Shown here piece after piece: positions 51,001-60,000 of a stretch of DNA of 64,000 nt. The stretch is from Heteronotia binoei (lineage: Eukaryota): contig NC_083231.1 of the NCBI RefSeq assembly GCF_032191835.1, forward strand, positions 55,056,001 to 55,120,000, in the 5' to 3' direction. Positions within the stretch are counted from its first letter, which is position 1. Every line of letters begins with the position of its first letter. The position numbers were made by a program.

Positions 51001-54000
51001 ATACATTTTTGAAATGGCAATGGCTGTTCAAAAGTAGTACTTAATTGGGCATTACATGCAGAGAATGCTTCATTTTCTGGTGTTTGTTTTTGTAGCCTTT
51101 CCAGACCCATGGAAAGATTGTACACTGGGTCACAGAACCAGATGGAGGAATAGCCACAGAAGTCGGGGGCAGGGTAGCTGAAATAGTTCCTTCTTCTTCC
51201 ACAAGGGCAGTTCCACTGAGGATAGGGGAAGCGGTCTCTCCTCATCCCCTTGTTCTTCCTCATTCCAGTTTACTGCCTCACATACCTCTTCCTCTGTATA
51301 GCTCCTACAACGCCAAGATTAATAATTGGGGGGTGGGGGGAGGGCTGAAAGAACTTCTGGAAAGGAGAGAGAGAAACATAAGAAAATGTCATAGATACTG
51401 CCCATTAAATGCTTAATATTCTTGTGGTATATTTATGCTAACTGTTTATAGAAGCCTTTGAAGTCACAAGTATTGGTTAAAATATACTGCTACAAGAGTC
51501 AGATGTCAAACGCCTGAGATTTAGTTTTTGTTTCCATTTTGGGAAAATAAATGCAATTCATAAGCCAGTACTCCCTTATTAAATGTTGCTATTCTGGTTT
51601 TGTTTACAGAAGTAACACTGATGTTATGAAAATAAAATAACGATAAGGAATCCACTGAAGACAGTAGAACTAAATAGGGATGCTAGAGATCTTCTTCGTG
51701 GTCTCTGTGCAGTCCCACACATGGGTCTTGCCGCAGGCAACGGATCCATTCCTCGGAGCTCCAATAGCTCGTTTATAACGTCTTTTGGCGCGCTTTCCTC
51801 CCGCTCTGGGGAGCAGGCAGCGACCGCGCATGCCTGGAGCGGGGGGAGAGCGCCCCTTCCACTCAGTTTCTTTCCTACCGCCGCCCGGACAACACCTCCC
51901 TCGCTGCGTTCCTCCTTAGCTCGTCTGTTACTTCATCCGCTTCTTTCCTCCTTCACTGGTATCGTATTTCTATCTCTTATATCTTCTCTTTCGTCCCAAA
52001 AAAAAAAACAAAAAAAAAACAAAAAAAAAACCCCGTTCTGCGCTTTCTTTCCCCTTTTCTCCCTTCCCCCCCCTCCCTTGTCCGGGGCGCATGGAAGGGA
52101 AAGTTACCTTCAAAAAGTGCACGCGCTGTGGGACCAAAATCCCTACTACAGACGGCCACAGCCACTGCCTTTTTTGCTTGGGGGAATCTCACCGAGTCGA
52201 CTCCTGCCCTCATTGTGCGAATTTCGGAAAGCAGGCCCGAAAAAACCGCGCGGCAAGGCTCCGGAGTTTCCTGATCGAGTTGTCCTTAAGGGCTATGCCC
52301 ACATCGGGCTCGCCGCCTCCCCAACAACAAGCGGGAGATTCGGCTTCTACGGACGTGTCTCTCGCTAAACAGAAACACAAGTCCGATAAAAAATCTTCGA
52401 AGCACGCCGAGACCGGCCATAAGGCTTCGAAGAAATCGCGCCACCTGGAACCCACGGGTCCGGCGCACAAAAAGTCTCGTCATCCCGGATCGGCCGATTC
52501 GGGCCCGAGGAAACTCCACGCGCACTTGGCTCCCAAGAAGCCTCAGCCTCCAATTTCGACATCGACCTCCATGGATCCTGTGACTCCAACTCAGCCTGCT
52601 CTTCCGCTTGAGTTGACGACTCCGTCGGACGTCATCACCGACATGCCCCAACTGACGCCTCACACATCTACAGCAGTTGAGGTCATACCGGTCCACTCTC
52701 GTTCGCCCTCGGTGCACAGCGTGGTCCCGACCGACTTCCTTGAACCCGATCTTACTAGTGAGTCTACCCAGACCTACCTGAAACCCCCGCTTCGAATCGG
52801 ATCCTTCCGCGATATCGGGATTTCTCCCCTGTATAAGGACCTCCGAGACGTCGGGATTTCTCCCCTGTACAAGGACTCGGCCGTTCAGGCCTCAAACAAG
52901 GGGCGCTCTCGCTCACCCTCACGTCGACTACGATCCCGGTCACCGCTCAAGGCTCGCTCCAGATCACCGCGCCGGCGCCGAGACTCCGACTCCTCTGATT
53001 ATTATCGGGACTATTATGCCCCCAGATACGACCGGCACCACTCTCGCTTTCATCGTCCTTCTCGTTCTCCTTCTCTTGAGGGCTCAGGTTATTCCCCGTA
53101 CCAATACGAGGACTCTCCTAGACCCCGTGATCGACTCCGTGACTTTTCTCGACGACTCCGCGATTCTCCACGCCGTGATTACTCCCGGGATCGGACCCGA
53201 CAGCCACGCCCCCGCGGCTTCGACCATGACCTCTCTTCTCCACCCCGTGACCAAGATCGGACCCGTGAACATGCCTATCCTCGGGATCGGATCCGAGAGC
53301 CGGACTACTCTCGCTATTCCCCTCGACTCCGCGAAAGGCTTCGGGAATCTGTTCGTCACTCTGATCTACAGCGACCCCGGGACCACTACCAGACAGAGGA
53401 CGCTAGACCGCGCACTCCATCAGCCTCGGCCGCGATTGCTCCTCCGGTCTCCACTCCTACAGACCAACCTGCTCAGACGATGAAATCTCAACCTGTTCCT
53501 TCGGACCCGATCCGACCCCCGCACTCTCCCTCGGGTGAGGATTCCCACTCCGACCCGGAATCGTCAGCATCCTCAGACTCCGAGGACCGTCCTGACTCGG
53601 TAGCCTCGGATTCGGTACCACAGCCCCGACTATCTCCATCTGATGCGTCCAAGGCCTATCTCCACCTAATTACAACCATGGCCGAAGCCCTCAACATTAC
53701 TCTTCCGTCGGACTCACCTAAGGTCTCTGACCTTGTACACGACCTCGTGCAAACGGACTTTCCACCGGGCTCGCTTCTTCCCATGCTCCCGGTACACCTC
53801 GAAGGCCTCCGCGAAACCTGGGACAAACCTGCCTCGGTTCCACCTACCGCGAAACGCTTTGACTCTCTCTACAGAGTTCACGCTCCTGAGGCTAAATTTC
53901 TTGCTTCTCATCCGGCGCCCAACTCCATTATCGTGCACTCAGCCACTAAGGCTAAACCATCCAGACATCCGACACCTCCTGACCGTGAAGGCAGGAAATT

Positions 54001-57000: not shown

Positions 57001-60000
57001 CCTGCCTAAGGTTGTCTCCCAGTTCCACTTATCAACCTCAACTTCTCTACCAACGTTCTTCTCCAACCCATCCGACCAGGGACAACGAGCCCTGCATTCC
57101 TTGGACGTTAGAAGGGCGTTATCCTTCTACCTTGATCGTACACAACCTTTCCGTAAGGACCCTAATCTGTTTGTGGCCTACGGAAACCCCCACAGGGGTC
57201 TTAAAATTTCTACCCAACGTCTGTCAAAGTGGGTAGTCAGTGCCATCAGGTTGTGCTACGAACTGGCTAAGCAGCCTTTGCCCGACGGCCTTAAGGGCCA
57301 CTCTACTAGAGCGGTCTCCACGTCTTCGGCCTTTCTACAAGGCGTGTCTCTAGAGGACATTTGTGCGGCTGCATCCTGGTCCTCTCCATCCACGTTCGTC
57401 TCCCACTATGCGATGGACGTTCGTGCGAGACGTGACGCCTCCTTCGGCCAAGCGGTCCTCAGATCCATCTTCCTCTGAAGCCAGGGGTGAGTGCATCCGC
57501 TTCCATCTTTACACTGCAGACCACGTCACATGATGGTTGATTGCGTGATTGCATGTGATTTGATTTTTCCTGTGACTAACCTTTTTCTTTACCAGCACCC
57601 TCCTCCAGTCCATCCAGCTGGCTAGTCACCCATGTGTGGGACTGCACAGAGACCACGAAGAAGATAAACAGGTTGCTTACCTGTAACTGATGATCTTCGA
57701 GTGGTCATCTGTGCAGTCACACACGCCCACCCAGCCTTCCCCGCTGCTGGCCTCTTGTGATTCTTCCGTAAACTTACAGTGTCATTGCCGGCGGCGGCTG
57801 GAAGAAACTGAGTGGAAGGGGCGCTCTCCCCCCGCTCCAGGCATGCGCGGTCGCTGCCTGCTCCCCAGAGCGGGAGGAAAGCGCGCCAAAAGACGTTATA
57901 AACGAGCTATTGGAGCTCCGAGGAATGGATCCGTTGCCTGCGGCAAGACCCATGTGTGTGACTGCACAGATGACCACTCGAAGATCATCAGTTACAGGTA
58001 AGCAACCTGTTTATCCTTCTGTTTCTAGAAATGAAATCTCTTTGGGGTCTATCTTTAGTGACATGATAGTTGCTGCATAATGGCTCTTCCCTCTACACTC
58101 AGCAATTCTGGAAGTAATCAAATAGAACAGGGGTGGTCAATGGCATGGCCGATGGCTGGGGCTGATGGGAGTTGGCCACCCCTGAAATAGAAGAAATCTA
58201 CATTGGGTTGAATTTTAGCAGTGCCCACATAAAAGGCTGGTTTAAGTATGTGTTTTTTTCCTATTGCTCCTTCCCATAGCCTCTGAACCTTAAAATGCTG
58301 GTTCTGAAGGTTGTGGGATTTGTAGAAATGAAAAGCCACACCTTCACTGAGGAGGTGAAAGCAATCTGGGTTACTCCTCTCTGCTTGTTCCATCAGTGGA
58401 GCCCTTTTGATCTAATCAGTTTTGTGGTTTGCAGTGAGAGAGGTTGCAAAAATGTTGTAAGCCATGCAGGCAACCATACTTATCACAGATTAAAATATTT
58501 TAATGTCATATTTTACTGTCATATTTTAATGTCAAATCTAGACTTCATAAAAATAGAATATGTATAAAAGGCTTGCATTTTATAAAACATGCAAAAAGAG
58601 CCATGGCTAGGGTCTCACCTTTGAATATGTCTCTTGCAGATACTCCACTTGGCTTCTTTGTGATTCAAGTACTGGCAGATGATATGGACCTGGGCCCACC
58701 TCTTCACTACAGTTTTGCTGAGGGTGGTAATCCTGGAAGGAAATTTGCCATTGACAAGTACAAGGGAATAATCACATTGGTGCAGGCATTAGACTTTGAA
58801 GAAATTGCTCAGCTTGAACTGTTGATCAGAGTTTCAGATTCTGTGCATCAAACCACAGAAAAACTTTTAGTCCTTATATCTGATATAAATGATAATCCAC
58901 CAGTATTTACTCAGGATGCATATCAGGTAAGAACAAAAATATTGCCTTGGAAGCTTTTATATGTAATACTTCTGTCGTGTGTGCTTGAACTACTTTAATC
59001 TGTTTTCATTTCAGGTGGTGATACCAGAACTCACAGCTATAAATGATTCTCTCTTAACTGTGTGTGCCACAGACAGAGATTCAGGGAATAATGGAAAGAT
59101 ATCCTACAGAATTCTCTCATCCTCTGATGCATTTTCTGTTGATCCAAAAAATGGTGAGTCTGCATGCATTTGGTATGGAATGTGCATTATGGATTGTATG
59201 ATTGTACATCCACATAGCCACATGTAATTACAGTAGTCACTGGAGAAAGTCAAACTGTAGATTTCAGCTAGAATAGACATGAAACACAGGTAGAAAAACC
59301 AGCCATGTTAAAGCTAAAAGACAATGATATTGGAAATCTTTTACCTTCAGGCTGCCTGCAAAGCACAGTGACAGACTTCCATGCTGTCCCTATTCCATGA
59401 AAAATGGCAAAAGTTTAAAATTAGACTTCTCTTTTAGAATGCTGTTCAGCACAAATTCTTGGAATTAGTGAATGGATTTTGTGGAAGGGATTGTTGCTGA
59501 TCCTGAAAGTCAAAGTACCTTTAGGAATGGCATTAGATATGGCACAATGGAATTATCAGAATCCCATCCCCAGTTATGAACTCTTGTTTCATGTGTGCAG
59601 GAGTTTGCAAAAAAAGGGGAGGGTCAGGTCTGCCAGTTCTCCTTTTCCTCTGCAGCCAACTGTACTGTTCTTCCAGAAGATTACCTTATCTGCAGGAACT
59701 TTTTTTGGTTGCTGTGGAAAATATCAGAAAAGATTGCTTAAAACATTCTTGGTAGCTTGGAAAACCTTATTCTACTAAAATGTATAACAAACATCTCTGC
59801 CATGTTTGTTTGTTTTTTAATTTACACATAGTAGCCTATATTTTCAGGTTTGAAATGTTTTCAAATTGACAGGTGTTCCTTCCTCTTCACAGAGCACAGG
59901 AACAAAATAAACTGAAGCATGTTTCATCAGTTCATTTATCCATTCATTTAATTCCACCGTTCTCCCCAAATGGGGACCCTATGTGGCTCACTACAAAAAC

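What the first reader, a model, noticed from the sequence alone, without database searches (positions are those of the whole stretch)
51689..58015. Apparently intact, very young DIRS1 element: candidate active copy
Seen: three long ORFs without disruptions, about 157 bp of ITR identical between ends (51716-51872), ICR exactly complementary to both termini, and dense CpG in a CpG-poor host background. Inference: a recent insertion that may be polymorphic and mobile. It sits sense-oriented in a developmental gene.
Basis: partly seen in the sequence, partly recalled or inferred. Interest (0 to 1): 0.68.

Follow-up and report, generated by a model that had tools for sequence, protein, structure and literature searches.

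The report
Intact DIRS1-like retrotransposon in gecko DCHS2
A complete, undamaged copy of a known kind of jumping gene (a DIRS1-like retrotransposon) sits inside an intron of the dachsous-2 cadherin gene of a gecko; it looks recently inserted, but it is an ordinary member of a well-described family.

Summary
Window 51689-58015 (+) is a 6,327-bp DIRS1-like tyrosine-recombinase retrotransposon. It has inverted terminal repeats and a 97-nt internal complementary region that pairs perfectly with both termini (38 + 62 nt, 3-nt overlap). It has three uninterrupted reading frames: a gag-like ORF1, an RT/RNase H/methyltransferase-like pol, and a Cre-like recombinase. No gene is broken (0 stops, 0 frameshifts).

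CpG o/e is 0.87 in the element against 0.15 in the flanks, with no TpG/CpA excess. The host is the gecko Heteronotia binoei, not human. The element lies in sense orientation in an intron of protocadherin-23 (DCHS2) that would be about 1.34 kb without it.

The architecture matches published Anolis and Xenopus DIRS1-like elements, including the long YR/pol frame overlap. The nearest proteins in the databases are only 47-57% identical, so this is a new member of a known kind.

Recent insertion is well supported but only indirectly. Mobility, polymorphism and copy number could not be tested, because no eukaryotic genome collection was available. Interest is modest.

The parts
51689..58015 (+). Whole DIRS1-like element, 6,327 bp. 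It begins and ends with the same trinucleotide, ATC.
51689..51885 (+). Left terminus and left ITR. Ungapped arm 51704-51872; gapped arm 51693-51885. The outer 38 nt pair with the left half of the ICR.
51998..52030 (+). A-rich tract in the leader between the left ITR and ORF1.
52091..54604 (+). ORF1, gag-like, 837 aa, intact. It has a conserved N-terminal Cys/His-rich part (aa 1-100), a low-complexity middle with a 36-nt tandem duplication (52806-52876), and a conserved helical C-terminal domain (aa ~490-805) with a LAP2alpha-like fold.
54381..56480 (+). pol ORF, 699 aa, intact. RT is at 54867-55349 (YIDD at residue 274), RNase H at 55683-55952, and the Dam-like methyltransferase domain at 56061-56231.
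54605..57478 (+). Recombinase reading frame, open over its whole length, same frame as ORF1. The first ATG is at 55400 (692 aa from there). 55400-56480 overlaps pol. The catalytic Cre-like part is 56481-57478, with the SAM-like core-binding domain at 56504-56692.
57628..57724 (+). Internal complementary region. The left half 57628-57665 pairs with the left end. The right half 57663-57724 pairs with the right end. The 3-nt overlap 57663-57665 (GAT) is the circular junction.
57790..58015 (+). Right ITR (57790-57984) plus a right extension of 31 nt (57985-58015) that pairs only with the ICR.
50840..50972 (+). Host exon upstream of the element (protocadherin-23 aa ~2206-2250). A GT donor follows at 50973.
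58640..58929 (+). Host exon downstream of the element (aa ~2250-2346). It is preceded by an AG acceptor ending at 58639.
60189..62825 (+). Last host exon. Its translation is 100% identical over 874 aa to protocadherin-23 of Heteronotia binoei.

Best explanation
This is a full-length, coding-competent copy of a DIRS1-like retrotransposon (order DIRS, tyrosine-recombinase retroelements). It entered an intron of the gecko DCHS2 (protocadherin-23) gene recently and lies in the same orientation as the gene.

Shown here:
- ITRs, and an ICR that pairs perfectly with both termini through a 3-nt junction.
- A right extension.
- Intact gag-like, RT/RNase H/methyltransferase-like and Cre-like recombinase frames that keep the family's conserved residues.
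- The same trinucleotide at both ends and no longer target duplication.
- No CpG decay.

Inferred from the published DIRS-1 model (Cappello 1985, as summarised in PMC7192593 and PMC3266345):
- A sub-genomic transcript is reverse-transcribed.
- The missing ends are rebuilt on the right ITR and on the ICR.
- The ends are joined at the 3-nt junction.
- The recombinase exchanges strands between that junction (ATC) and an ATC in the target. This leaves one ATC on each side and no target-site duplication.

Whether this copy or its family still moves is not shown.
For: - Termini and ICR.
- Domains: Pfam RVT_1 E 1.7e-23, RT_RNaseH E 5.7e-08, Dam-like E 1.1e-04 (below the curated cut-off), Phage_int_SAM_1 E 8.7e-05. 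The best solved-structure relative of pol is Ty3 RT/RNase H, E 4.7e-18.
- Recombinase: the model (pLDDT 81.6) matches Cre/Tre at E 7.5e-10, TM 0.58/0.69, then Xer, lambda and Tn1549 integrases. R205, K237, H334, R337, W360 and Y370 are all present.
- ORF1 C-terminal domain: the only fold match at E <= 0.001 is the LAP2alpha dimerisation domain, E 9.4e-05. PMC4495291 derives that domain from DIRS1 ORF1.
- Conserved columns kept: pol 113 of 117, recombinase 40 of 41, at the >=90% level.
- All three frames align end to end with relatives.
- Youth: CpG o/e 0.87 against 0.15; TpG/CpA 1.00/1.01 against 1.27/1.29. There are 0 mismatches in 100 ICR/terminus pairs. The one ITR mismatch is mirrored in the ICR halves.
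- Host and orientation.
Against: - No sibling copy was seen. The best database proteins are only 53% (pol), 57% (recombinase) and 47% (ORF1) identical. No second copy or fragment lies in the 64-kb window. Copy number and family divergence are therefore unknown.
- High CpG could also come from lack of germline methylation rather than youth.
- The methyltransferase-like match is below Pfam's cut-off (22.3 against 28.1 bits).
- The terminal trinucleotide ATC is not of the NTT type found in 23 of 28 annotated elements (PMC3266345).
- There is no transcript, methylation or population data.
Confidence: 0.9

Rival explanations
1. Young and intact on paper, but immobile. The copy, or the whole family, is silenced (methylation, small RNAs) or carries subtle missense defects. 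It would then be a recent fossil, not a source element.
For: Nothing here shows transcription or new insertions. Four of 117 strongly conserved pol columns and 1 of 41 recombinase columns differ from the majority of relatives. No near-identical sibling protein is in the databases.
Against: The share of conserved columns kept (97%) equals the median of the relatives themselves. All catalytic residues checked are present. The ends and ICR are perfect.
Confidence: 0.45
2. An old insertion whose frames are kept by selection at this locus (a domesticated or exapted copy).
For: DIRS1 ORF1 has been domesticated elsewhere, as LAP2alpha (PMC4495291). The frames are intact.
Against: The non-coding parts are as pristine as the coding ones. 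ICR/termini show 100 of 100 pairs. CpG o/e is 1.03 in the left ITR plus leader and 0.64 in the 3' end, against 0.15 in the flanks. There is no TpG/CpA excess. The annotated host protein splices across the element.
Confidence: 0.03
3. A lineage that reached this genome recently by horizontal transfer, which would explain its foreign composition.
For: GC is 54% and CpG o/e 0.87 in a 41% / 0.15 background. The nearest proteins are only about 50% identical even in another gecko, Eublepharis, at 51-53% for the recombinase.
Against: The nearest named relatives are all from reptiles and amphibians, as vertical descent predicts. Transposon ORFs are poorly represented in gene annotations, so low identity may only reflect sampling.
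Confidence: 0.08
4. An assembly artefact: the element was joined into the intron by mis-assembly.
For: None specific. Repeats are a common cause of mis-joins.
Against: Both junctions are clean and fall exactly where ICR complementarity stops. The same trinucleotide stands on both sides. The intron sequence and splice sites continue normally on both sides.
Confidence: 0.02

Closest known systems
AcDIRS1 / AcDIRS2 of Anolis carolinensis (Piednoel et al. 2011, PMC3266345, Table 3; passages read)
   Same: The plan is the same: about 6 kb (5,938 and 5,997 bp), a divergent outer ITR part of 26 nt, a conserved ITR of 136-140 nt, a right extension of 26-28 nt, ICR halves of 39-40 and 58-60 nt, and no left extension. 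AcDIRS2 also has the long ORF overlap. Here the values are 6,327 bp, a conserved ITR of about 156 nt, a right extension of 31 nt and ICR halves of 38 and 62 nt.
   Different: The terminal trinucleotide here is ATC/ATC (junction GAT), against CTT/CAT and TTT/TGT. Anolis recombinase proteins in the database are only 47-53% identical. No DNA comparison was possible.
DIRS-1 of Dictyostelium discoideum (Cappello 1985, as described in PMC7192593 and PMC3266345; passages read)
   Same: ITRs; an ICR exactly complementary to both ends (33 + 55 nt there, 38 + 62 nt here); a right extension; three ORFs with the recombinase frame overlapping pol. The ICR was shown by experiment to be essential there.
   Different: DIRS-1 is 4.8 kb, has longer terminal repeats (up to 316 bp in PMC3266345) and inserts mostly into other DIRS-1 copies. 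Here the target is a unique intron.
Xenopus DIRS-like families, e.g. DIRS-37_XT (PMC9210276; passages read)
   Same: A vertebrate genome holding putatively functional copies with all ORFs, ITRs and ICR, and a very recent amplification wave (< 3.2 My). Xenopus recombinase relatives of about 610-640 aa align over the overlap region too.
   Different: 31-35% identity over the long recombinase frame, so a different lineage. A genome-wide census exists for Xenopus but not here.
PAT-like and Ngaro elements (other DIRS-order superfamilies, PMC3266345)
   Same: Tyrosine recombinase plus RT/RNase H. PAT also carries the methyltransferase domain.
   Different: They are bounded by split direct repeats. 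Here the termini are inverted and the only direct repeat is a 35-nt tandem inside ORF1. Ngaro lacks the methyltransferase domain and usually the ORF overlap.

Membership tests
DIRS1-like superfamily (order DIRS) | Inverted terminal repeats bounding the element | tested here: met
   169-nt arms at 99%; gapped alignment 189 of 192 columns identical
DIRS1-like superfamily (order DIRS) | Two adjacent internal complementary regions, inverse-complementary to the left and right termini and overlapping on a 3-bp circular junction | tested here: met
   38 nt and 62 nt, both 100%, overlapping at 57663-57665
DIRS1-like superfamily (order DIRS) | Right extension that pairs only with the ICR | tested here: met
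   57985-58015, 31 nt
DIRS1-like superfamily (order DIRS) | Tyrosine recombinase in place of a DDE integrase, and no aspartic protease | tested here: met
   Cre-like fold at E 7.5e-10. R, K, H-x-x-R, W and Y are present. No integrase or protease family was found in any ORF.
DIRS1-like superfamily (order DIRS) | pol with RT and RNase H of the Ty3/Gypsy type | tested here: met
   RVT_1 and RT_RNaseH. The best solved relative is Ty3 RT/RNase H, E 4.7e-18. YIDD is present.
DIRS1-like superfamily (order DIRS) | Methyltransferase-like domain after RNase H | tested here: inconclusive
   Dam family match at E 1.1e-04, 22.3 bits, below the 28.1-bit cut-off. Four of the 120 listed relatives carry PF05869.
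DIRS1-like superfamily (order DIRS) | gag-like ORF1 homologous to the LAP2alpha domain | tested here: met
   The only fold match at E <= 0.001 is 2v0x, LAP2alpha. The Pfam LAP2alpha match is weak, E 0.13. 907 representatives match at E <= 0.001.
DIRS1-like superfamily (order DIRS) | No target-site duplication; the same trinucleotide at both ends, complementary to the junction | tested here: met
   ATC at 51689-51691 and at 58013-58015; junction GAT. The flanks are otherwise unrelated. The empty site itself could not be fetched.
PAT-like / Ngaro | Split direct repeats at the ends | tested here: not met
   No terminal direct repeat was found.
Active (currently transposing) family | Several near-identical copies, insertion polymorphism, transcripts | not testable with these tools

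The most novel reading that the evidence does not exclude
The element belongs to a DIRS1 lineage that is transposing now in Heteronotia binoei, and this DCHS2 insertion is polymorphic. In addition, the unbroken continuity of the ORF1 frame with the recombinase frame would reflect a real expression route. Only one TGA separates them, and the frame stays open for 265 codons that hold no ATG and match no homologue (chance about 2e-05). The route could be, for example, stop-codon read-through or frame entry from pol, instead of simple initiation at the first ATG.
Probability: 0.12. Interest if true: 0.5.

Novelty: new member of a known kind. Interest (0 to 1): 0.3.

Why it matters
Intact DIRS1-like copies are the raw material for studying how tyrosine-recombinase retroelements replicate in vertebrates, and few are described outside Anolis, Xenopus and fishes. 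A pristine copy in a gecko adds a reference sequence for a lineage about 50% diverged from catalogued proteins. It also marks a possible presence/absence marker in a species complex known for chromosome races and hybrid parthenogens (recalled, not from a call). A 6.3-kb sense-oriented insertion lying 624 nt upstream of a DCHS2 exon could affect splicing or transcript termination. None of this changes what is known about the family.

Tried and rejected
- Clustered protocadherin locus. I first read the tandem cadherin-rich ORFs this way. I rejected it when the best solved relative was CELSR-like and the exon matched protocadherin-23 / DCHS2 at 100%.
- Human origin. Rejected: 100% identity to the gecko protein, and the mammalian DCHS2 proteins listed are 52-56% identical.
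- The 215-aa ORF 51721-52368, which starts in the left ITR. It has no family match, is low-complexity and overlaps the ORF1 start. I treat it as non-coding.
- The 565 codons of the recombinase frame upstream of 56300. They have no Pfam family. The first 265 have no homologue among the 93 relatives.
- Sequence search of the recombinase against solved structures. It gave only marginal Cre matches (E 0.06), so the fold search was needed.
- Rfam found only two tRNA-like hits outside the element.
- Literature. Search terms 'DIRS, gecko, retrotransposon' returned 5 papers, none on gecko DIRS by title or abstract. 'Heteronotia binoei, genome, transposable' returned 10 papers, 9 listed, none describing this element by title or abstract.
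I repeated it with faster settings.
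Full report
**Observation**

The region 51689-58015 stands out from the rest of the window. GC is 52-57% against 38-47% elsewhere, with a strong C-over-G skew.

The repeat finder gave three inverted pairs:
- Arms 51704-51872 / 57802-57970, 169 nt, 99% complementary.
- 51689-51726 / 57628-57665, 38 nt, 100%.
- 57663-57724 / 57954-58015, 62 nt, 100%.

With gaps allowed, the terminal repeat runs 51693-51885 / 57790-57984, with 189 of 192 aligned columns identical. The last 31 nt (57985-58015) then form a right extension that pairs only with the internal region.

Three long frames are open and uninterrupted: 52091-54604, 54381-56480, and 54605-57478.

CpG o/e is 0.87 (385 CpG, GC 54%) in the element, against 0.15 (364 CpG in 57,673 nt, GC 41%) outside it.

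**Host and context**

The 874-aa ORF at 60201-62825 carries cadherin repeats. It is 100% identical over 100% of its length to 'protocadherin-23 [Heteronotia binoei]' (P0121, 3,269 aa). The next best hits are other geckos at 86% and 81%, and the mammalian proteins listed are 52-56% identical. The window is therefore gecko, and nothing here was taken for human.

Protocadherin-23 is DCHS2, as several rows name it. Its role in Fat/Dachsous signalling during development is recalled, not tested.

Mapping P0121 back on the window places aa 711-3269 on the + strand. The element lies between the exon ending near 50972 (GT donor at 50973) and the exon starting at 58640 (AG acceptor ending at 58639). The intron is about 7.67 kb, or about 1.34 kb without the element. 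The element ends 624 nt before the next exon.

The gene was identified from one exon alone and from the fetched reference protein. The exons were not joined into a spliced model.

**Termini**

The element starts with ATC and ends with ATC. The two ICR halves overlap on the complementary GAT (57663-57665). Complementarity stops exactly at 51689 and at 58015. This is the '3-bp circular junction' geometry described for DIRS1-like elements (PMC3266345, passages).

The single mismatch between the ungapped ITR arms lies in the part that also pairs with the ICR. Each ICR half carries the matching variant. The mismatch is therefore a built-in difference of the family (the 'divergent ITR' of PMC3266345), not a later mutation.

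The 5 nt after the right-hand ATC resemble the element's own sequence after its left-hand ATC. This may be chance.

**Coding capacity**

*pol (699 aa).* It has RVT_1 (E 1.7e-23), RT_RNaseH (E 5.7e-08) and a Dam-like match (E 1.1e-04, below Pfam's cut-off). Its best solved relative is Ty3 RT/RNase H (E 4.7e-18; 203 distinct chains at E <= 0.001). YIDD is at residue 274.

*Recombinase.* By sequence it matches only the SAM-like core-binding domain (E 8.7e-05) and Cre marginally (E 0.06). Its AlphaFold model was built on an alignment with 36 relatives and reached pLDDT 81.6 and pTM 0.73. The model matches Tre/Cre at E 7.5e-10 (TM 0.58/0.69), then Xer, lambda and Tn1549 integrases; 65 matches fall at E <= 0.001. 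The catalytic R205, K237, H334, R337, W360 and Y370 (numbered from the ATG at 56300) are all present.

*ORF1 (837 aa).* It has no Pfam family at E <= 0.01, but 907 / 361 / 69 representatives at E <= 1e-3 / 1e-10 / 1e-30. Its N-terminal Cys/His-rich part and its C-terminal domain are collinear with relatives of 691-823 aa. The model of aa 430-837 (pLDDT 71.5) has one fold match at E <= 0.001, the LAP2alpha dimerisation domain (E 9.4e-05). PMC4495291 traces that domain to DIRS1 ORF1 (passages).

*Conserved columns.* For pol I used 40 relatives out of the 120 listed, those of 620-760 aa. The window's pol agrees in 113 of 117 columns where at least 90% of relatives share a residue, and in 151 of 160 at 80%. 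For the recombinase I used 40 of the 93 relatives, those of 320-470 aa. It agrees in 40 of 41 and 68 of 70 columns. The relatives themselves keep a median of 97%.

No gene is broken: 0 stops, 0 frameshifts, 0 truncations relative to relatives.

**Frame overlap**

ORF1 and the recombinase share one frame. Between 51917 and 57476 that frame holds a single stop, ORF1's TGA. Over the pol ORF, 0 of 100 codons that could create a stop in that frame are preceded by a T-ending codon. The control codons show 16 of 97 and 29 of 98. The chance of an open frame is about 2e-11. The third frame has 32 stops there.

From the ATG at 55400 the frame gives 692 aa. These align from residue 64-97 to the end with relatives of 608-659 aa from Anolis, Dendrobates and Xenopus. 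The overlapping part alone matches 6 of 93 relatives at 23-30% identity.

A long YR/pol overlap is a published trait of half of 28 annotated DIRS1-like elements, including AcDIRS2. What stays unexplained is the 265-codon stretch 54605-55399. It is open (chance about 2e-05) but holds no ATG and matches no homologue.

**Age**

Evidence for a recent insertion:
- No TpG/CpA excess: 1.00 / 1.01 in the element against 1.27 / 1.29 in the flanks.
- High CpG o/e in the non-coding parts too: 1.03 in the left ITR plus leader, 0.64 in the 3' end.
- 100 of 100 ICR/terminus pairs intact.
- About 5.4 kb of coding sequence without a disabling change.

In the published model the left repeat is rebuilt on the right one, and the ends are rebuilt on the ICR, at each cycle (PMC7192593). 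Both comparisons can therefore date a copy. With about 254 compared pairs and no unexplained difference, pairwise divergence is below roughly 1.2% at 95%. That is a few million years at squamate substitution rates of about 1e-9 per site per year. The rate is recalled, and the bound is an inference.

The caveat is that an unmethylated element would also keep its CpG.

**Relatives**

- pol: 1,704 proteins at E <= 0.001 among 7,999 scored. The best is 53% identical (unnamed). Named ones are Pelodiscus 48%, Chrysemys 48%, Pogona 47% and Pleurodeles 49%.
- Recombinase: 93 proteins, the best at 55-57% (unnamed). Named ones are Gopherus 55%, Eublepharis 53%, Varanus 52% and Anolis sagrei 50%.

No H. 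binoei protein appears among them, and no second copy lies in the window. Transposon frames are often left out of gene annotation, so this says nothing about copy number.

**Comparison and novelty**

Size, ITR parts, right extension, ICR halves and overlap match the Anolis elements of PMC3266345 closely. Putatively active copies with all features are reported in Xenopus (PMC9210276).

The differences are the ATC trinucleotide (23 of 28 annotated elements have NTT) and the sequence distance. I file it as a new member of a known kind.

Two searches of the held library found no description of DIRS elements in geckos or in this species, judged by the titles and abstracts listed:
- 'DIRS, gecko, retrotransposon': 5 papers.
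- 'Heteronotia binoei, genome, transposable': 10 papers, 9 listed.

Repbase and Dfam were not on hand, and no supplements were opened. The family may therefore already be catalogued.

**Unchecked**

- Copy number, divergence, polymorphism, transcripts, methylation and the empty site.
- Genome contigs holds bacteria and archaea only and was not scanned.

Noticed in passing
window 54605-55399: The recombinase frame is open for 265 codons directly after ORF1's TGA. It has no ATG and no homologue among 93 relatives. The chance of staying open is about 2e-05. How, or whether, this stretch is translated is unexplained.
   Followed up: partly
window 14402-14473 and 45651-45723 (also 29635-29829): Two tRNA-like sequences (Ala-GGC 37.8 bits, Pro-GGG 58.2 bits) that are 86% alike over 77 nt, plus a weaker third copy. 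They are probably heads of a tRNA-derived SINE in DCHS2 introns.
   Followed up: partly
window 2886-3080, 9409-9589, 13305-13475, 14102-14226, 31485-31617, 48423-48743: Self-complementary stretches of 125-320 nt (72-91% arm identity), as small hairpin-forming or MITE-like repeats would give.
   Followed up: no
window 15006-15536, 41990-42445, 43336-43760, 30518-30674, 31621-31767: Copies of one interspersed repeat in both orientations, 68-85% alike, in the GC-richer parts of the introns.
   Followed up: no
window 52806-52876: A 36-nt tandem duplication (89% identical) inside the low-complexity middle of ORF1. It gives a repeated 12-residue peptide.
   Followed up: no
window 51998-52030: An A-rich tract of 33 nt in the element's leader, between the left ITR and ORF1.
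   Followed up: no
window 58016-58020: The host bases after the right-hand ATC resemble the element's own bases after its left-hand ATC. As a result, ICR complementarity runs on for 5 nt with one gap. This could be target preference or chance.
   Followed up: no
window 55841 and 54299: One AATAAA and one ATTAAA lie on the sense strand inside the element. In a sense-oriented intronic insertion these could in principle end host transcripts early. This was not tested.
   Followed up: no
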